IMG/VR virus record: IMGVR_UViG_3300037755_000497
Location: 1 to 64,000 of that record
DNA: 64,000 nt
From: a virus
Strand: one strand, 5' to 3'
Shown here: piece by piece, positions 6,293 through 44,420 of the stretch
How the letters are laid out: each line of letters starts with the position of its first letter
Numbering within the stretch: the first letter of the stretch is position 1
Translations under genes and position numbers: made by a program
The notes under the pieces: generated by a model
Told to the model about the DNA's origin: nothing
Seen by the model: only the letters and a program-made list of their open reading frames with translations
Database searches by the model: none

Positions 6293-6726
6293 TGGTGGAC
6301 GTGACGGGAATCGAACCCGTGTCCAGAATCGTAATCTTAAAATCGTTTACAAGCATAGTTCTATTTAAAGTTGAACTTCTTTATGGGGGCACACCAAGGT
6401 GTACCGACTCCACCACTTTATTTTTAAGGAACAAAGAAACCTACACCCTTCTGACATTAGGTTAGTGTGAACCCTTATGACTTATTGAATCCGCTAGTCA
6501 CCAAAGCTGGTTTCCCCAATTCTGTTTCTTGGTCTGGGGAACCTCATTACCTAAAAACTAAAATTAAGCGGCCAGTAAAACTGGTTGTGCCTTTTTAGCT
6601 TTATAATCAGCAAGCGAAACTACATTGTTTTCGTTTATGTTTCGGTCAGCTTTTTACGTGGCCAACTGACCAACCACGGCTTGAAGATAATTGTCCTACT
6701 AACCCTGTCGAAACCTTAACACGCCC
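6293..6726 (-). ncRNA. ssrA: tmRNA (434 nt)
   Basis: 5' GGGCGTG...TTCGAC; 3' T-arm ACGGG-TTCGATT-CCCGT and CACGTCC-A-CCA; acceptor stem with G3.U70 Ala determinant; internal tag ORF 6564-6632 ENNVVSLADYKAKKAQPVLLAA* after a UAAAC resume context. Confidence 0.95.
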
Positions 6727-8000: not shown

Positions 8001-8351
8001 TTATATTCCATTCTTCTTCTTCCTAATGTGGAAACCCTTAATTTTTAAATCACGCTGCTTATCTGTTAATTCAATTACAGCTTCTTTAATATAATTTCTA
8101 GGTTCTTCCTTGTTACCATCATCGTCTTCTTCTTCATTATCATCACTGTAGTAGTGTGGTTCTGGTTCTTTAAATATTTCATTAAAAGCATCACTCATAC
8201 ATAAATGACATGTAGTATGGGCAATATTTTCAAAATCTTCCACTTCTGTTTTTATATCATTACCAGCTAAAGCAGCATGGACAGCATGACGAAAACAAAG
8301 TGTCGAATCATTTTTATTAAGTGAATATCTTATCTGAAAATTTATGTTCAT
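8001..8351 (-). CDS. Hypothetical protein
   Basis: ORF overlapping def stop. Confidence 0.6.
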   Translation of the reverse strand: MNINFQIRYSLNKNDSTLCFRHAVHAALAGNDIKTEVEDFENIAHTTCHLCMSDAFNEIFKEPEPHYYSDDNEEEDDDGNKEEPRNYIKEAVIELTDKQRDLKIKGFHIRKKKNGI

Positions 8352-8986
8352 TTCACTTTATACAATTGCCCATTGTCTGTAAGAAGAATACCGTCTAAAT
8401 GCTCAACTTCATGCTGAACACAGATAGCTTGTACGCCAACAGCTATTGCTTCCCTTTCTTCACCGTCAACAGTTTGATATTTAAATTTTACCCTTGCCTT
8501 TCTTCTTGTCTTAACAGCGTACCCTGGAAAAGATAGACACATTTCTTCAAACTTCATTCTTCCAGTAGCTTCAACAATTACTGGGTTAATATAAACCTGC
8601 ATACCATCTTTTTGTTCGCGGCCATCTGTATCAATCATCTTGCCTTCAATACAAATCATTCTAATATTAATTCCTATCTGTGGTGCTGCTACACCATAGC
8701 ATCGGTTTACTTTTGCAGTAGCAATTAGTTCTTCGGCCCACCTTTTCAGTATGTCATCAAATGCTGTTACTTCAACACTCGGCCTTCTTAGGTTTTCTAT
8801 ATCTTCCTGGCTATTAAATTTTAGTATTCTTTTTGCTGGAACCACATTAACTTCATCTTCAAAGAAAGGAACTTTAGCGTGTGTACCATTTCCTTCATTC
8901 ATTTCAGTGCCCCTTCTATTAGCATCTAAACCATAGGCAAGTCCAAATGCTGATGTCATTAATAACATTCTTTTTGTGCTAGTCAT
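8348..8986 (-). CDS. def: Peptide deformylase (start probably ATG 8986 or later; track gives 9016)
   Basis: YGVAAPQIG, EMCLS, QHEVEHLDG motifs; short C-terminus. Confidence 0.93.
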   Translation of the reverse strand: MTSTKRMLLMTSAFGLAYGLDANRRGTEMNEGNGTHAKVPFFEDEVNVVPAKRILKFNSQEDIENLRRPSVEVTAFDDILKRWAEELIATAKVNRCYGVAAPQIGINIRMICIEGKMIDTDGREQKDGMQVYINPVIVEATGRMKFEEMCLSFPGYAVKTRRKARVKFKYQTVDGEEREAIAVGVQAICVQHEVEHLDGILLTDNGQLYKVK

Positions 8987-9155
8987 TTGATTTCTTTTTC
9001 TTCTTCTTTTTATCAATAGGGCCAGCTAATTTTTTTATTTGCCCATGCAGAAAAGATTGCCAGCTTCTTCCATCTAATTTCTTTTCAGCACGTGCTTTCA
9101 ACTTAGGGTTAACCCTAACATGTACATGTACTATATCTGTTCTTTTTTCACTCAT
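8979..9155 (-). CDS. Small ribbon-helix-helix-like DNA-binding protein (58 aa, not in track)
   Basis: Hand translation MSEKRTDIVHVHVRVNPKLKARAEKKLDGRSWQSFLHGQIKKL...; stop overlaps def start. Confidence 0.55.
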   Translation of the reverse strand: MSEKRTDIVHVHVRVNPKLKARAEKKLDGRSWQSFLHGQIKKLAGPIDKKKKKKKSND

Positions 9156-9285
9156 TTTCTTTACCCGTTATCTTTGATTTCTTAAGTTTCAGTTTCACCC
9201 CTATAATAAAGGCCCCGATGAAAGGAACCATCATTAATAAATCTACAATCATGTGGCCTAAACCTAAACCGTGTGGGCATTGCAT
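9148..9285 (-). CDS. Small membrane protein (45 aa, not in track)
   Basis: MQCPHGLGLGHMIVDLLMMVPFIGAFIIGVKLKLKK...; AAGGA RBS. Confidence 0.5.
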   Translation of the reverse strand: MQCPHGLGLGHMIVDLLMMVPFIGAFIIGVKLKLKKSKITGKENE

Positions 9286-9310
9286 ATTATATTTCCTTAC
9301 CTAATTAAAA

Positions 9311-9728
9311 AATGGGATTACCAAACAGCTTGGTGGTAAACAACGGGCCTTAATACCGATACACCCAAAAACACTTAATCCAAGATTTGAAAAATTTTTG
9401 TACCTTTAACAATCTAAACTTTGTCGGTTCCCAATATGGGTAACTCTGTACTAATCTTTTCTAATCTAAATTTTAAACCTTAACGGTTAACCTTTTACCT
9501 TTCATAGTCAGAATCAAAATCTGATGCCCACTTTTGTAGTGTAGGCTATTCTATTTGTCAGATGCTCTACCAGATTGAGCTACAACTTGATAAGTTGATA
9601 GGATTTGAACCTATAACACCCTGAACTATTTTATGGCGGGCCTTTTTATTTGTTGCCCCTCAAAGGTGCTAGTTATACCCAAACTAGCAAGGGGGTATTG
9701 TCTGTTGTATTCGTTTGGCAATCCCATT
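9311..9728 (-). ncRNA. Putative ~418-nt structured ncRNA of unknown family
   Basis: 16-bp terminal stem AATGGGATTGCCAAAC / GTTTGGTAATCCCATT followed by U tract; internal hairpins; tRNA-like domain; 7-nt periodic tract; no minus-strand ORF in the track. Confidence 0.8.
9558..9624 (-). ncRNA. Circularly permuted tRNA-like domain (YrlA/Y-RNA-type) inside the ncRNA
   Basis: Order: TCAGG, variable loop, T-arm ATAGG-TTCAAAT-CCTAT, closed acceptor CAACTT-ATC-AAGTTG, TA, D-arm GCTC-AATCTGGTA-GAGC, A, TCTGA. Confidence 0.82.
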
Positions 9729-9733
9729 AAACT

Positions 9734-10393
9734 TTATAACGTAACGTCTTCTTCAACTTCTATTTCAGTTTTTGAATTACTTTCTGAAAGAACAATGTCA
9801 ACTTCACTTTCAAAAGTATCAATCTTTTCTTCTAGTGTTTTAATCTTAGCTTCAATTTTAAGTGGGTCAATAACTCTTAATTCATTGGCCTTAACAAAAG
9901 CATTAGATATATTTTCAACTTCTTGTGTTTTGTTTTTTGAATCTGAACCAAGGTTCTGGGAAACCATAGCATCAATTTTTTCATCTAATTCTTCACGTGC
10001 TTCGGCAATCAATTTATCATTTTGCTGCTTTTGCTTTTTCAAAGTAAGTAATAGTTCTTTTTCGTACTTAACTTGATTTTTATATTCAATAGCTTCGGCA
10101 ACAGAAATTGCTTTTACACCTTTACCACTTCCAACTTTTACTTTTGTCTTAAGATTGGAAATCATAATAGCTGTCTTAATTGAAGCACGTCTTTTCTGTA
10201 ACCCAACTACAGCATCATATCTTGATTGCGCTGTTGATTCAAATTCCTTTATGTCCATATTAGAACGTAAAGCTTTGCCCTTATATTTTTCCTGGGAAAC
10301 ATCTAGTGCGTTTAATTTTGAAATAGCTGAACCAATTCTGGCATCAATAAGTTTTAATTCTCTTAGTCCACGTGTGACTGACATCTTTTGCAT
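9734..10393 (-). CDS. Coiled-coil DIP1984/septicolysin-like family protein (start probably MQKMS at 10393)
   Basis: MSVTRGLRELKLIDARI...IKTAIMISN.KTKV...SVAEAIEYK...IDPL...FESEVDIVLSESNSKTEI pattern; AAAGGA RBS before 10393. Confidence 0.7.
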   Translation of the reverse strand: MQKMSVTRGLRELKLIDARIGSAISKLNALDVSQEKYKGKALRSNMDIKEFESTAQSRYDAVVGLQKRRASIKTAIMISNLKTKVKVGSGKGVKAISVAEAIEYKNQVKYEKELLLTLKKQKQQNDKLIAEAREELDEKIDAMVSQNLGSDSKNKTQEVENISNAFVKANELRVIDPLKIEAKIKTLEEKIDTFESEVDIVLSESNSKTEIEVEEDVTL

Positions 10394-10446
10394 TTTTAAT
10401 CCTTTGTTTTTCAATTCCATCAACTATCAACACCAATTTTTTATAA

Positions 10447-10475
10447 AATATAATACCCGTAAGATTACCTGTCAA
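10447..10475 (-). promoter_or_regulatory. Strong sigma70 promoter driving the DIP1984-like gene and ncRNA
   Basis: TTGACA-N17-TATATT. Confidence 0.75.
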
Positions 10476-10479
10476 CTAA

Positions 10480-10938
10480 TTATTTGGATGCATTTGGATT
10501 TCTTTCTAGTGACACCATTCCGATAATATCAACTATTCGTACACCCCTTTGCATCGCTGCACCACATACGGTTCTAAATGTATCTTCTAAATCATCCAAA
10601 GATACGTAACCATCCTTCATTTCCAGCAATAGTTTATCCCAAACTTCTATACCATGGTGAACATCTACTATTGCGAATGGGAAGTTAGGTGCTATTTTCC
10701 TTGCCAATATTTTGTAGTCTTCCTTCCTTTCATCATCATAAGAAGGTGGCAAACTTATATTATTAATAAGGACAGAATGTTCTGATATAGCTACTTTGGG
10801 CATATCCCAAAAATACCTAGAAAGGAATCTGTCTTCTTCTACTTCTGGAATTCTCATTGGGTGTATTTTTAATTGTTTCATACTATTGAAGTGAACCTTG
10901 GCCAGCATTACTATTGTCTTCACCATCACATTCGTCAT
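10480..10938 (-). CDS. Hypothetical protein (true start likely MKQLK near 10880)
   Basis: ORF in co-oriented run. Confidence 0.55.
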   Translation of the reverse strand: MTNVMVKTIVMLAKVHFNSMKQLKIHPMRIPEVEEDRFLSRYFWDMPKVAISEHSVLINNISLPPSYDDERKEDYKILARKIAPNFPFAIVDVHHGIEVWDKLLLEMKDGYVSLDDLEDTFRTVCGAAMQRGVRIVDIIGMVSLERNPNASK

Positions 10939-41378: not shown

Positions 41379-43267
41379 TATCTCTTACCTTTATTTTTTA
41401 CTGACCTAGATTTCATTCCATATTTCTCTCTAAATTTTTGTACTGCTTTATCGTAAGAAAGACCCGAATCAAAATACTTTGCTTTACGGCCGTTGAAATT
41501 TAACAAGCATGAACCACCGTCACCCCATCTGGAAGTAACATGAACTTCTGTGACAGTTTCCATTTTTGATTTTGATTCTTCTGCATTGTCTTCACCGTAA
41601 TTGTCATTTGTCTTAACCCTTCTGTGCAAGATAACTAATGAATCCAAGTCTTGGTAAATTGAAGATGAATCTTTTAAATCGTTAGCTGTTGGAACTCTAT
41701 TGTTTTCAACTTTTCTTGGTTGCGCAATTAGCACAAATAATATACCAAGTTGTTCTGCTAATAATTTAAATCTTCTAGTTACTTCACCAATTTTATCTTT
41801 TACATTATCACCACGAACTAGGAAGTGTAAGTGGTCAAAACAAACTGCTTTAACACCGTAACGATGTACAACATTTGTTATCTTCTCACACATAGCTTCT
41901 AATTCAATTATCCCGTCTTCTGGGTAACCAAGGTACATAATATCCGCTGGGTTTTCAAACCTTGCTTGCCGTATTTGTAGTTCTGTTAAGTTATCGACAT
42001 GTGTAAAATCTGAAACAGCATTAGCAATAGTTTTTTCGGCCATTCTTAATTGTCTCATTTCACAACATTCAATATAAGTTGGTATCCCTTGTTTTCCCAA
42101 ATCTAAAAACCAATCAGCTACCCATGTTGTTTTACCAACTTTTGGATTCGCTGTTACTACAACAAAGTAACCAGGTTTAGAACGTGGTAAAATCCTATTT
42201 ACCCTTTCCCATCTTGTGATAAATCCAATTAGTTCATCGTCATCAGCTGTGTGCCTAAGTTTAATTAATTCCCTGTAAGCATCTGTCAACGACATTACAG
42301 ATTTTACTTGGAATTGTTTTGCTAATGTAACTAACTTCCTAAAGTCCTTTTCCGTATATCTTGGTGCTTGCTTATCTTTATCCCAAAAATACTGGTTGGC
42401 ATCTTTTAATAGTTTCTTCTCCCCTTCTTCTATTATCTCATGCTGGGGCAAAAGAACGTTGTAGCACCTGTTCATTCCAAGACGCTTGGCCATTTTTTCA
42501 GCACCATCTTGACCGTCAACATCATTATCGTAAACTAAATTAATTCTCTCAAATCTTTCAAGCCTTTCATACCATTCTGGTTGCATGGCCTTTGCACCAG
42601 TAGTAACAGCTACAACATTTTCAAAACCAGCGTTCCATAGTGCTATGGCATCAAGTTCAGCTTCACATAGGAATATTTCTTTTATTTCCTGGTTATCTAA
42701 TATTTCATCATGGAAAAGGGAAGACTTGCCACCTGTTATTCTACGCCACTTGAATTTCTTATCTTTAAACTGGATGGCCCTGAATTTTACGTTGACAAGC
42801 ACCCCATTTTCCCAGAAAGGAAGTGAAACGTATTCATACCCTTTCTTCTTCCAAGAACCTAGCATAAAATGCTTGATTGCTTTCATGGAAAAACCACGTT
42901 CATTTATTAAATAATCTTTCGCTTTCCTTTTACTATTCTCAATTTTATTAAAATATTTATGTGCCAATGTCTGGTCAATATCAGCATCTTCATGTTCATC
43001 ATTACTTGGTTTTTTAAGTTCTATATTTGCACGCTCATTGTCACCAGTTAATTTGTTAAATTCTTTCTGTAGTGACTTTATAGAACGCCCTTTAACACCG
43101 CACCCACCATTAAGACAATTCCAATAACCATAATAAGCGTGGTTGTTATTATTATTAATACCAAACCTTTGCCTATCATCATCACAGAATGGGCAATCAG
43201 CTTGCAAGTTATTACCGACTTGTAAAACCTGTAAACCTTTACCTTCTAAATATTCCCTTAAGTCCAA
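41378..43267 (-). CDS. Primase-helicase (T7 gp4/Twinkle-like)
   Basis: CPFC...C..C Zn domain, TOPRIM CEAELDA / YDNDVDG, ANPKVGKTT, FDHLH, IAQPRK, LKDSSSIYQD. Confidence 0.93.
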   Translation of the reverse strand: MDLREYLEGKGLQVLQVGNNLQADCPFCDDDRQRFGINNNNNHAYYGYWNCLNGGCGVKGRSIKSLQKEFNKLTGDNERANIELKKPSNDEHEDADIDQTLAHKYFNKIENSKRKAKDYLINERGFSMKAIKHFMLGSWKKKGYEYVSLPFWENGVLVNVKFRAIQFKDKKFKWRRITGGKSSLFHDEILDNQEIKEIFLCEAELDAIALWNAGFENVVAVTTGAKAMQPEWYERLERFERINLVYDNDVDGQDGAEKMAKRLGMNRCYNVLLPQHEIIEEGEKKLLKDANQYFWDKDKQAPRYTEKDFRKLVTLAKQFQVKSVMSLTDAYRELIKLRHTADDDELIGFITRWERVNRILPRSKPGYFVVVTANPKVGKTTWVADWFLDLGKQGIPTYIECCEMRQLRMAEKTIANAVSDFTHVDNLTELQIRQARFENPADIMYLGYPEDGIIELEAMCEKITNVVHRYGVKAVCFDHLHFLVRGDNVKDKIGEVTRRFKLLAEQLGILFVLIAQPRKVENNRVPTANDLKDSSSIYQDLDSLVILHRRVKTNDNYGEDNAEESKSKMETVTEVHVTSRWGDGGSCLLNFNGRKAKYFDSGLSYDKAVQKFREKYGMKSRSVKNKGKR

Positions 43268-43268
43268 T

Positions 43269-44420
43269 TTATTTATCCCTTAATTCTTCTATATACTCAA
43301 TAACGAATTCTTGTATGGCCTCTGTCCTTTCAGCTTGACATTGCTGGACATATAGTGCTTCAAATAATGAAGCTGTCTTCTGTCTTATTTTTTCATACCT
43401 TTTCTTATAAAGTTTGTTATCTTGTAAAGGCGTTGATTTTTCTTCATCAGTTAATTCAATTTCTTCTAATTCTTTAGTTCTTAAATAATCTAATAGCCTA
43501 TCTTCGGCACCACTAGTAGAAAGGTGGTTTGGCTTTGGAAAAACACCATTACCTTCATTAGCGAATTTCAAACCAGTAATCTGGGCCTTCAAAAACTTTT
43601 TAATCGTAGTTTCATTATCATTTATAATGTCAACTGCTAGTAAAAAGTGTTTAAAATCTTTTCCAGTCTGGGAAGGAACTCTAAGAACTTTCTGCTTATA
43701 AAATTCTTTCCTAAGTTTCGCCCAACGCTTTGCTAATTGTAACGCTTTTTTAATTCTCTTACTTTCAACATCTGTTACTATTTTTTTCTTTTTAGATTTC
43801 TTCTTCTTTTCTACAATTTCTACTTCATAAGAAGGGTGCCCCTTATTTTTCTTTAATTCATTTTCCCTATACTTTATTAAAGCATCACTCATAACTTTAA
43901 ACTCAACAGCTGTTACATTATCACCCCTAAACTTATTGCATCTACCACAACAAGGTAGGACATTATCAATTGTATATCCTTTAAAATTATCTATCCTATC
44001 TAAACCGCACCCAGCTTCAAACCCAATTGTTTTTACGTTACAATAGTAGCAATTTTTATTAATTATTTCAGTGTAATCACTCTTTTTTAGATTAAAATTA
44101 ACACCCCTTTCATTCGCCTGTGATTTCGCTCTATTAAATCTAATTAATGGTTTCTTTGTAGCATCCGTTATACAATTTATGCATCTTCCTAAGTATCCAT
44201 CCTTCCTGCTAGCATCACTGTTAAAAAAAGATACATCTTTTATTTTTTTACAAGCCGAACATTTCTTTTCTGTAACTATTAAACTACAGGCAACAGATTT
44301 TGCCTGTTCTTTCTTGCATTGCTTACATTGGTTTTTAAAACCTGTTTTACTTTTTGTACGTTTATCAAAATTACTAATTGATTGTTTCTTTTTACAAGTA
44401 GTACATTTTTGTTTCTTCAT
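43269..44420 (-). CDS. HNH endonuclease (CxxC repeats) fused in frame to an unrelated C-terminal helical phage domain
   Basis: CYYC...GLDRIDNFKGYTIDNVLPCCGRCNKFR; C-terminal ~190 aa is non-HNH. Confidence 0.75.
   Translation of the reverse strand: MKKQKCTTCKKKQSISNFDKRTKSKTGFKNQCKQCKKEQAKSVACSLIVTEKKCSACKKIKDVSFFNSDASRKDGYLGRCINCITDATKKPLIRFNRAKSQANERGVNFNLKKSDYTEIINKNCYYCNVKTIGFEAGCGLDRIDNFKGYTIDNVLPCCGRCNKFRGDNVTAVEFKVMSDALIKYRENELKKNKGHPSYEVEIVEKKKKSKKKKIVTDVESKRIKKALQLAKRWAKLRKEFYKQKVLRVPSQTGKDFKHFLLAVDIINDNETTIKKFLKAQITGLKFANEGNGVFPKPNHLSTSGAEDRLLDYLRTKELEEIELTDEEKSTPLQDNKLYKKRYEKIRQKTASLFEALYVQQCQAERTEAIQEFVIEYIEELRDK

What the first reader, a model, noticed from the sequence alone, without database searches (positions are those of the whole stretch)
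9311..10475. Dedicated unit: DIP1984-like coiled-coil protein plus a ~418-nt structured ncRNA (candidate new ribonucleoprotein system)
Seen: a near-consensus promoter (TTGACA-N17-TATATT, 10447-10475) precedes the gene. Five nt after its stop, a 16-bp stem opens (9713-9728) and pairs with 9311-9326, followed by a U run. Inside are a hairpin CCCCT-TGCTAGTT/AACTAGCA-AGGGG, a GCCCGC/GTGGGC stem enclosing a tRNA mimic, a TCAGA/TCTGA hairpin, a 7-nt periodic tract and a CTTGG/CCAAG-closed 3' domain. The G.U pair in the terminal stem supports the minus strand as the RNA. Recalled, unverified: DIP1984-type proteins form oligomeric rings. Inference: a protein-RNA pair, for example a ring scaffold loaded on the repeats, an RNA antitoxin, or an anti-defence decoy. 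I do not recognise it as a named Rfam family.
Basis: partly seen in the sequence, partly recalled or inferred. Interest (0 to 1): 0.88.

Follow-up and report, generated by a model that had tools for sequence, protein, structure and literature searches.

The report
Phage helical protein with partner RNA
Right behind a small helical-protein gene this phage encodes a real, intricately folded 418-base non-coding RNA with a tRNA-shaped branch and a row of 7-base units; the same gene-plus-RNA pair, not described in any paper or RNA catalogue I could search, recurs in hundreds of phages (T5 relatives included) and in some bacteria.

Summary
Window 9311-9728 (minus strand) is a structured RNA. It is closed by a 17-bp terminal stem and starts 5 nt after the stop of a helical-protein gene (9734-10393) that has an 11/12 sigma-70-type promoter.

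Relatives of the protein (phrog_1491, T5.085) occur in 656 GenBank phage records and 69 bacterial loci. A model of the RNA's 3' domain finds exactly one hit behind the gene, on the gene's strand, in 147 of 159 sources and nowhere else.

Covariation or native-versus-foreign pairing tests support the terminal stem, two long-range helices, helix b, a 5' pseudoknot and the permuted tRNA cloverleaf.

This copy is the longest of 52. It carries a YrlA-type tRNA mimic, but it is not a Y RNA: there is no Ro60 gene, no Ro60-binding stem, and the score is below Rfam's cut-off.

The protein has a DIP1984-like fold (Z 10.7) but is not a member of that Pfam family. It is predicted to form a dimer.

My best reading is an undescribed ribonucleoprotein in which the protein binds the heptad rail. 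The function is unknown, and binding was not tested.

This scan has flagged the same pair on other genomes before.

The parts
10447..10475 (-). sigma-70-type promoter, TTGACA (10470-10475), 17-nt spacer, TATATT (10447-10452)
   Evidence: Read directly from the sequence. It is the best site in 9100-10700, with 11 of 12 matches.
9734..10393 (-). Gene for a 219-aa helical protein of the phrog_1491 / T5.085 family. The probable start is the ATG at 10393, with AAAGGA 6 nt upstream. The longest ORF reaches 10423.
   Evidence: ORF list. PHROG hit at E 1.3e-55. Homologues align from MSVTR onwards. AF2 model pLDDT 85. Fold closest to 3kdq, Z 10.7.
9311..9728 (-). 418-nt structured non-coding RNA; the longest of the 52 family members compared
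   Evidence: Its 3' domain is the only R1 hit in the whole 108.9-kb record.
9712..9728 (-). P1, 5' arm of the terminal stem, ending in the conserved ..CG followed by AA
   Evidence: The arm sequence differs in every lineage.
9311..9327 (-). P1, 3' arm of the terminal stem, preceded by the conserved GC and starting UG
   Evidence: The G.T versus A.C strand test gives 45 against 4.
9704..9708 (-). P2 5' strand ACAAC; pairs with GUUGU at 9340-9344
   Evidence: Native complementarity is reached by only 2 of 10000 permutations.
9340..9344 (-). P2 3' strand GUUGU
9694..9699 (-). P3 5' strand AAUACC; pairs with GGUAUU (9352-9357) in the loop of the P5 hairpin. Together with helix b this makes a pseudoknot.
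   Evidence: No permutation out of 10000 reaches the native value.
9345..9366 (-). P5 hairpin (GGGU/GCCC) whose loop carries the P3 3' strand (9352-9357)
   Evidence: Read from the sequence. The same pattern is seen in relatives.
9667..9693 (-). 5' H-type pseudoknot: CCC-U-UGCUAGUU-U-GGG-UAU-AACUAGCA
   Evidence: found in 26 of 52 RNAs against 0.25 in shuffles, with CCG/CGG and CCU/AGG variants.
9558..9625 (-). Permuted tRNA-like cloverleaf: anticodon-stem 3' strand, variable loop, T arm, acceptor stem closed by an AUC loop, U8-A9, D arm, anticodon-stem 5' strand
   Evidence: Rfam YrlA 44.2 bits, E 1.6e-8. Covariation across 12 relatives: 15 of 20 pairs change on both sides.
9508..9545 (-). 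Two hairpins specific to this copy: GCCUAC/GUGGGC (or GUGGGC pairing with GCCCGC at 9636-9641) and UCAGA/UCUGA
   Evidence: No close relatives were available to test them.
9385..9507 (-). Rail of about 14 degenerate heptads (family consensus G-N-U-Y-A-A-A), interrupted by the small hairpin CCCAUAUUGGG at 9430-9440
9380..9384 (-). Helix b 5' strand CUUGG, directly after the conserved UUCAAAUC motif
   Evidence: 96.5% of cells paired, covariation 0.608 against 0.162.
9329..9333 (-). Helix b 3' strand CCAAG
9307..9310 (-). T run after P1 (six T together with the last two bases of P1)
   Evidence: A T-rich tail follows P1 in 22 of 52 relatives. The simple terminator scan reports nothing here.

Best explanation
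The promoter, the gene and the RNA form one module that makes a ribonucleoprotein particle.

The RNA folds into a closed, knotted body with these elements:
- terminal stem P1;
- long-range helices P2 and P3, which tie the 5' end to the 3' domain across helix b;
- a 5' H-type pseudoknot;
- a variable port, which in this copy displays a permuted tRNA-shaped branch;
- a mostly unpaired rail of about 12-14 units of 7 nt (G-N-U-Y-A-A-A).

The 219-aa helical protein has a DIP1984-like fold and is predicted to be a symmetric dimer. I propose that it loads in several copies onto the rail, one A-rich unit per subunit, in the way HutP and TRAP read spaced NAG triplets. The tRNA-shaped branch would then offer a handle for enzymes that recognise tRNA, such as RNase P, the CCA-adding enzyme and tRNA-modifying enzymes. 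The particle would therefore act somewhere in tRNA or translation biology.

What is shown: the RNA is real, its fold is under selection, and it is almost obligatorily linked to the gene. What is inferred: direct binding, the site of binding, and the cellular role.

My odds: RNA real 0.97; gene and RNA work together 0.85; protein binds the heptad rail 0.45; role tied to tRNA or translation 0.35.
For: Linkage of gene and RNA:
- CM R1 of the 3' domain gives exactly one hit per locus, on the gene strand, 200-900 nt after the stop. This holds in 76 of 83 sources at E<=0.01 (20 of the hits were not in the seed alignment) and in 71 of 76 at E<=1. There are no hits on the other strand or elsewhere.
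- In four of the five whole bacterial genomes searched (the fifth gave no hit at E<=0.01), every hit lies behind a homologous gene, including a second pair in one genome.

Fold under selection:
- P1 has a different sequence in every lineage. Its isolated mismatches are 45 G.T against 4 A.C, p 8e-10.
- Helix b: 96.5% of cells paired against 72% in shuffles, covariation 0.608 against 0.162, 0 of 500 shuffles as high.
- P2 and P3: native complementarity is reached by 0-2 of 10000 permutations.
- 5' pseudoknot: 26 of 52 RNAs against 0.25 in shuffles.
- tRNA cloverleaf: 92.7% paired against 66%, 15 of 20 pairs with changes on both sides.

Heptad rail:
- Lag 7 is the best self-identity lag in 40 of 52 RNAs.
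- The heptad block aligns with few gaps across most of the family.

Protein:
- Eight conserved K/R columns.

tRNA theme:
- The pair lies inside or beside tRNA arrays in many phages. Two relatives carry a true tRNA, or a tRNA with an unreadable anticodon, in the variable port.
- This phage places the pair 2.6 kb from its tmRNA and 300 nt from its peptide deformylase gene.
- The closed acceptor of M. smegmatis YrlA is cut by RNase P and then receives CCA (PMC4201824).
Against: - No binding data of any kind, and no expression data for this phage.
- The protein family is near neutral (median pI 6.6) and matches no known RNA-binding fold.
- The heptads in this copy are degenerate.
- The tRNA-like branch is present in only about 13 of roughly 150 loci, so it cannot be the core function.
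- The bacterial loci and this phage record have no tRNA genes nearby.
- Knock-down of T5.085 gave no fitness defect in laboratory E. coli (PMC11879866, supplement file 16), so the role is accessory there.
- Co-transcription alone could explain part of the linkage.
Confidence: 0.5

Rival explanations
1. The RNA acts on its own, as a scaffold, decoy or catalyst, or as a 3'-end structure that stabilises the upstream mRNA. On this reading the protein is only co-transcribed and does not bind the RNA.
For: - The protein has no known RNA-binding fold and is not basic.
- Large phage-linked RNAs without a partner protein are known to me (GOLLD, ROOL; from my own knowledge, not tested here).
- The RNA starts 3-62 nt after the stop, as a 3'-UTR element would.
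Against: - Gene and RNA stay together at 28-40% protein identity, across phage families and bacteria, with no solitary RNA in the genomes searched.
- A knotted RNA of 250-420 nt with a fixed-size heptad rail is far more than a 3' stabiliser needs.
Confidence: 0.2
2. The RNA, with or without the protein, is a tRNA-mimic decoy. It would soak up tRNA-cleaving or tRNA-sensing host defences such as anticodon nucleases or PARIS-type systems.
For: - tRNA-shaped branch or embedded tRNA.
- Position in phage tRNA arrays.
- Dispensable in a laboratory host.
- One bacterial pair lies next to a TOTE conflict-system gene.
Against: - Most family members lack any tRNA-like branch.
- The branch has no anticodon loop, which is what anticodon nucleases cut.
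- The Lysinibacillus locus that I examined lies among ordinary chromosomal genes, which argues for a cellular role.
Confidence: 0.15
3. It is an enlarged Y RNA that recruits a host Ro60 (Rsr) and PNPase, as YrlA does.
For: - Rfam YrlA hit on the tRNA-like module.
- The overall plan of a terminal stem plus a tRNA-like module.
- The conserved CGAA at the inner end of P1 overlaps the GNCGAAN0-1G motif of YrlA.
Against: - The score of 44.2 is below the gathering score of 69, and only model positions 23-88 match.
- No TROVE gene in the record.
- Relatives live in T5-type coliphages, and E. coli lacks TROVE in the control search.
- Most members have no tRNA module.
- The RNA is 3-4 times the size of a Y RNA.
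Confidence: 0.04
4. It is a type III toxin-antitoxin pair, with a protein toxin neutralised by a repeat RNA.
For: A protein gene next to an RNA that contains short repeats.
Against: - The RNA lies downstream of the gene, not upstream.
- The units are 7 nt and sit inside a large non-repetitive fold.
- No PADLOC-type family or nuclease fold was seen.
- T5.085 knock-down is neutral.
Confidence: 0.03
5. The terminal 'stem' is a DNA-level inverted repeat, such as the ends of a miniature mobile element or a recombination site, and not an RNA helix.
For: Inverted repeats of 12-21 bp flank 250-420 bp.
Against: - One copy per genome, always behind the same gene.
- The arms differ between lineages but stay complementary.
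- Mismatches are strand-specific: 45 G.T against 4 A.C.
Confidence: 0.01

Closest known systems
YrlA-type bacterial Y RNA with Ro60/Rsr (Rfam RF02553; Chen et al. 2014, PMC4201824)
   Same: - Permuted tRNA-like module (T arm, closed acceptor, D arm) joined to the rest of the RNA through the anticodon stem.
- 5' and 3' ends paired in a long stem.
- CGAA near the 5' strand of that stem.
   Different: - 418 nt rather than 80-130 nt.
- No Ro60 gene.
- The Ro60-binding part of the model is not matched, and the score is below the cut-off.
- The module is optional in this family.
- This RNA has extra pseudoknots and a heptad rail.
- The partner gene is a helical protein of about 210 aa.
RAGATH-27 RNA motif (Rfam RF03100, orphan 86-nt candidate sRNA)
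   Same: Its consensus begins ..CGAAAACUUuAAAC.., which is the 5' junction of this family. It hits the first ~85 nt of several relatives (L070 29.1 bits, also L057, L079 and L008).
   Different: - All hits are far below the cut-off of 76 bits, and there is none in this window at E<=10.
- The motif models one hairpin only.
- It has no terminal stem, heptads, 3' domain or linked protein.
tmRNA with SmpB (smpB-ssrA gene pair)
   Same: A small protein gene followed by a pseudoknot-rich RNA of about 360 nt with paired ends and a tRNA-like part. This comparison rests on my own knowledge of the smpB-ssrA pair. This phage also has a true tmRNA 2.6 kb away.
   Different: - No acceptor end.
- No tag reading frame.
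- No match to the tmRNA model.
- The protein is helical, not an SmpB barrel.
HutP-hut RNA and TRAP-trp leader (oligomeric proteins that read spaced NAG triplets)
   Same: A row of evenly spaced A/G-rich units in otherwise unpaired RNA. The HutP sites have a 7-nt period (from my own knowledge).
   Different: - The protein fold is unrelated.
- The rail sits inside a large folded RNA rather than an mRNA leader.
- Binding has not been shown.
DIP1984 / Pfam DUF6847 (PDB 3kdq, function unknown)
   Same: - Best structural match: Z 10.7, 151 of 153 residues aligned.
- Shared SN.T.V..T[VL]A[ED]A[IL] motif.
   Different: - No Pfam or NCBIfam hit.
- About 65 residues longer.
- hhalign probability 7.6%.
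- The one true DUF6847 gene checked has no such RNA behind it.

Membership tests
YrlA / bacterial Y RNA (RF02553) | tRNA-like domain with T arm, closed acceptor-like stem and D arm | tested here: met
   cmscan aligns 9557-9622 to model positions 23-88. The cloverleaf covaries in 12 relatives.
YrlA / bacterial Y RNA (RF02553) | Reaches the family's curated score, including the stem with the GNCGAAN0-1G Ro60-binding motif | tested here: not met
   44.2 bits against a gathering score of 69. Model positions 1-22 and 89-114 are not matched. Only CGAA is shared.
YrlA / bacterial Y RNA (RF02553) | Encoded within a few kb of a Ro60 (TROVE) gene on the same strand | tested here: not met
   No TROVE match in the 108.9-kb record, which is 76% complete.
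YrlA / bacterial Y RNA (RF02553) | Size 80-130 nt | tested here: not met
   418 nt between the ends of P1.
RAGATH-27 (RF03100) | Match to the covariance model at or above the gathering score | tested here: not met
   No hit in 9150-9850 at E<=10. Relatives reach at most 29.1 bits against 76.1.
DIP1984 family (Pfam PF20935 DUF6847) | Match to the Pfam profile | tested here: not met
   No hit at E<=0.1. One of 44 relatives hits at E 0.0067. The link between PF20935 and 3kdq was confirmed.
DIP1984 family (Pfam PF20935 DUF6847) | Same fold as PDB 3kdq | tested here: met
   Foldseek rank 1, probability 0.87. VIA Z 10.7, rmsd 4.2, 151 of 153 residues aligned, next hit Z 8.2. Z below about 13 is not decisive for helical proteins.
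phrog_1491 / T5.085 protein family | Full-length match to the PHROG profile | tested here: met
   E 1.3e-55, residues 11-224 against profile positions 2-210 of 211. T5.085 is phrog_1491 in PMC11879866 supplement file 8. The label 'tail fiber' is an annotation only; the original GenBank records say hypothetical.
Heptad-rail RNA behind phrog_1491 genes (unnamed family defined here and in earlier notes of this scan) | Terminal stem ending 5'-CG|AA and GC|UG-3', helix b, 3' domain, position behind the gene | tested here: met
   R1 hit at 50.9 bits, E 4.3e-7, at 9316-9398. Junction motifs. Helix b.
tmRNA (RF00023) | Match to the model; acceptor end and tag reading frame | tested here: not met
   cmscan and ARAGORN find a tmRNA only at 6293-6726.
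Type III toxin-antitoxin (ToxIN-like) | Tandem repeats of about 30-40 nt upstream of an endoribonuclease toxin gene | tested here: not met
   The RNA is downstream of the gene, the units are 7 nt, and TRF finds no tandem array. The protein is a helical bundle.

The most novel reading that the evidence does not exclude
This is a widespread, unrecognised class of ribonucleoprotein, found in phages from T5 relatives to Bacillus phages and in Bacillota chromosomes. In it, dimers of a DIP1984-fold protein line up on a fixed-length heptad rail of a knotted RNA, and the RNA's variable port displays a tRNA or a permuted tRNA. In copies like this one, RNase P would open the closed acceptor loop, as it does in M. 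smegmatis YrlA. That would give a two-piece RNA that can receive CCA and so enter the translation machinery, making it a new kind of tRNA-linked device alongside tmRNA.
Probability: 0.12. Interest if true: 0.95.

Novelty: categorically new. Interest (0 to 1): 0.8.

Why it matters
If the pair is a particle, it adds a new large structured RNA with a dedicated protein to the short list that includes tmRNA-SmpB, Y RNA-Ro60, 6S RNA, SRP and RNase P. It is present in a classical model phage: T5 gene T5.085 and the unannotated gap 43063-43504. Function can therefore be tested directly with ordinary genetics and biochemistry.

This copy adds three things:
- It shows that the variable port can hold a YrlA-type permuted tRNA, supported by covariation.
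- It shows that the pair can exist in a phage record with no tRNA genes.
- It lies in a stretch that also holds the phage's tmRNA and peptide deformylase, which points to translation.

It also gives the orphan DIP1984 fold a first functional lead and explains the orphan Rfam motif RAGATH-27 as a fragment of a larger RNA.

Tried and rejected
The closest relatives (74-80% protein identity, P0002-P0007) could therefore not be fetched, and the hairpins specific to this copy remain untested.
- blastn of the RNA against GenBank phages found no match. The first protein-pattern scan of viral contigs found none either; the profile scan then worked.
- Column-wise covariation for P2 and P3 on the MAFFT alignments was blurred by register shifts. 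I replaced it with tests of native against foreign partners.
- My first strand test, which allowed both G.T and A.C pairs, was uninformative, and the second was circular. The third, which counts isolated mismatches flanked by Watson-Crick pairs, is the valid one.
- The whole-RNA fold is not striking (z -1.81), as expected for a pseudoknotted RNA.
- A homodimer model of the protein (complex prediction) scored ipSAE 0.64 against a best control of 0.06. That mark was reached by 20 of 30 proteins solved as pairs of one chain and by 1 of 23 solved as single chains. The three runs agree in at least 92% of contacts and the partner's pLDDT is at least 85. This supports self-association in the model only and says nothing about RNA binding or rings.
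- Pfam, NCBIfam and the protein Atlas gave no family for the protein.
I did not see a convincing register here, by eye only.
- Literature searches for DIP1984, RAGATH-27, T5.085, T5p083, phrog_1491 and phage tRNA-like ncRNAs found no description of the pair. The library lacks most subscription journals.
- The simple scan finds no intrinsic terminator at the RNA's 3' end. The nearest is at 9229-9211.
Full report
**What is in the window**

On the minus strand, a TTGACA-N17-TATATT promoter (10475-10447, 11 of 12 matches) precedes an ORF ending at 9734. The likely start is the ATG at 10393, with AAAGGA 6 nt upstream, because homologues align from MSVTR onwards.

Five bases after the stop codon, 9712-9728 pairs with 9311-9327. 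This gives 17 bp with two G.U pairs, followed by a T run. The enclosed 418 nt have no ORF of note.

Rfam at its curated thresholds finds only a tmRNA, at 6293-6726. A permissive scan of the region gives one meaningful hit: YrlA, 44.2 bits, E 1.6e-8. It covers model positions 23-88 of 114 only, which is the T arm, the closed acceptor and the D arm.

**The protein**

- It has no Pfam or NCBIfam family.
- It is a full-length member of phrog_1491 (E 1.3e-55). The label 'tail fiber' is annotation only; the original GenBank records say hypothetical.
- tblastn finds the family in 656 GenBank phage records. These include T5-like phages (T5.085 in DT57C), rV5-like phages, Bacillus Bastille-like phages, Pseudomonas, Lactococcus and Vibrio phages.
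- AF2 gives a confident helical model (pLDDT 85).
- Its best match in the PDB is 3kdq (DIP1984): profile E 0.07, Foldseek rank 1 with probability 0.87, and VIA Z 10.7 with 151 of 153 residues aligned, the next hit at Z 8.2.
- I confirmed that Pfam DUF6847 is the DIP1984 family: a DUF6847 protein from P. cellulosolvens hits 3kdq at 1.3e-29.
- The window's protein does not match DUF6847. hhalign gives only 7.6% probability, though an SN.T.V..TVAEAI motif is shared.
- 'DIP1984-like' therefore holds at the level of fold, not of family membership.
- A homodimer model passes its controls (ipSAE 0.64 against 0.06). That shows the model's confidence only.

**The RNA is real and conserved**

- *Terminal stem.* In 80 viral loci encoding relatives at 32-41% identity, most have a stem of 13-21 bp that opens a few bases after the stop and closes 250-420 nt later. 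Shuffled controls mostly reach 9-10 bp.
- *Arm sequences.* They differ in every lineage, but the inner end is constant: 5'-..CG|AAAA and ..GGC|UG..-3'.
- *Strand.* Isolated mismatches inside these stems are 45 G.T against 4 A.C (p 8e-10). Selection therefore acts on an RNA made from the gene's strand, not on a DNA inverted repeat.
- *Helix b* (CUUGG/CCAAG in this copy). 96.5% of cells are paired against 72% in shuffles. Covariation is 0.608 against 0.162, with 0 of 500 shuffles as high, and slid controls reach at most 0.166.
- *P2 and P3.* Two further long-range helices join the 5' end to the 3' domain. In this copy they are ACAAC/GUUGU and AAUACC/GGUAUU. Native partners pair better than foreign ones, with 0 and 2 of 10000 permutations reaching the native value. 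With helix b they form a pseudoknot.
- *5' pseudoknot.* An H-type pseudoknot (CCC, hairpin, GGG in the loop) occurs at the same place in 26 of 52 RNAs against 0.25 in shuffles. It has CCG/CGG and CCU/AGG variants.
- *Heptad block.* Between the variable region and helix b lies a block of about 12 heptads (consensus G-N-U-Y-A-A-A). Lag 7 is the best self-identity lag in 40 of 52 RNAs.
- *This copy.* The periodicity is weak here: 0.40, reached by 9 of 2000 shuffles, and TRF finds nothing.

**Linkage to the gene**

- A covariance model of the 3' domain (R1, 80 positions) finds one hit per locus. Every hit is on the gene's strand, 200-900 nt after the stop.
- This holds in 76 of 83 sources at E<=0.01, with 20 hits that were not in the seed alignment. 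It also holds in 71 of 76 bacterial and leftover loci at E<=1. There are no hits elsewhere in about 1 Mb searched.
- The bacterial relatives are mainly Lysinibacillus, Sporosarcina, Solibacillus and Clostridium.
- One Lysinibacillus locus lies among ordinary chromosomal genes. One Pseudobacteroides locus lies beside a TOTE conflict-system gene.
- In four of the five whole bacterial genomes searched, every R1 hit lies behind a homologous gene. This includes a second pair in Paenibacillus. The fifth genome gave no hit at E<=0.01.
- The window's own record has one copy of the RNA, no tRNA gene and no TROVE gene.

**The tRNA-shaped branch**

- About 13 loci carry the same permuted cloverleaf at the same place in the RNA.
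- On 12 of them the four helices are 92.7% paired against 66% in shuffles. Fifteen of 20 pairs change on both sides, and all six acceptor pairs covary.
- One relative carries a complete normal-order tRNA, and another carries one with an unreadable anticodon. Most relatives carry nothing there.
- The branch is therefore an optional cargo of a variable port.
- It is not evidence for a Y RNA. The Ro60-binding part of the model is unmatched, the score is below the cut-off, no Ro60 gene is present, and T5-type relatives infect E. coli, which lacks TROVE in the control search.
- The YrlA paper shows that RNase P can open such a closed acceptor and that CCA is then added (PMC4201824). That makes a two-piece processed form conceivable here.

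**Relation to what is catalogued**

- RAGATH-27 (RF03100) weakly hits the first ~85 nt of several relatives. Its consensus contains the family's CGAAAAC..AAAC junction.
- It is best read as a fragment of one subgroup of this RNA. It does not hit this window.
- I found no paper on the pair.
- In the CRISPRi-ART data for T5, T5.085 is phrog_1491 and is scored 'Not Fit'. The 442-nt gap behind it carries no listed gene (PMC11879866 supplement files 8 and 16).

**Earlier notes of this scan**

Seven follow-up notes on other genomes describe the same gene-plus-heptad-RNA pair. I used them as leads and re-tested three points here: RAGATH-27, the bacterial copies and the comparison with YrlA.

**Reading**

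- The best explanation is a dedicated ribonucleoprotein: one transcription unit, a knotted RNA body, a heptad rail loaded by several copies of the dimeric protein, and a port that can show a tRNA shape.
- Shown: the RNA, its fold and the linkage to the gene.
- Inferred: binding, stoichiometry and any role in tRNA or translation biology.
- The rivals are listed with their odds.
- This copy is the longest of the 52 compared (418 nt against a median of 324.5). It lies in a stretch that also holds a tmRNA and a peptide deformylase gene.

Noticed in passing
window 6293-6726 (-): Complete phage tmRNA (Rfam 132 bits; ARAGORN tag ENNVVSLADYKAKKAQPVLLAA), 2.6 kb downstream of the RNA on the same strand. 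The 108.9-kb record has no tRNA gene at all.
   Followed up: partly
window 8348-9016 (-): Phage-encoded peptide deformylase (Pfam E 1.7e-35), 300 nt downstream of the RNA. Two tiny ORFs (45 and 58 aa) lie between them.
   Followed up: no
L002 3733-3807 and L062 3713-3787: In two relatives the variable region of the RNA holds a normal-order tRNA: tRNA-Ser(UGA) in L002, and one with an unreadable anticodon in L062. These take the place of the permuted module.
   Followed up: partly
L039, L040 and L042, first 400-900 nt after the gene: AGGAAAC-rich inverted repeats of 17-68 bp are inserted between the gene and the RNA. The RNA's 3' domain follows only 760-900 nt after the stop.
   Followed up: no
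L082 5069-5627 (Escherichia phage DT57C 30992-31627): The record annotates 'rnaX, stable RNA with unknown functions' 2 kb from the pair. Rfam sees a tRNA-like stretch inside it.
   Followed up: no
L116 4537-6336 and 850-1986: In Pseudobacteroides cellulosolvens the pair lies beside a TOTE conflict-system primase-helicase gene and a SUKH-1 protein.
   Followed up: no
L153 2751-3685 (Paenibacillus xylaniclasticus): A second gene-plus-RNA pair in the same genome as L107. The protein-pattern scan missed it; the RNA model found it.
   Followed up: yes
L001, L003, L007, L013, L023, L025, L041, L046, L080: A divergent subfamily of the RNA (5' CGAAGAGCAAAUUGACCG, no CCC/GGG pseudoknot), partly from bins labelled as giant-virus MAGs.
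   Followed up: no
window 9843-9870 (-): A weaker promoter-like site (TTGACC-16-TAAGAT, 9 of 12) inside the 3' end of the gene could drive the RNA on its own. The match is at chance level.
   Followed up: no
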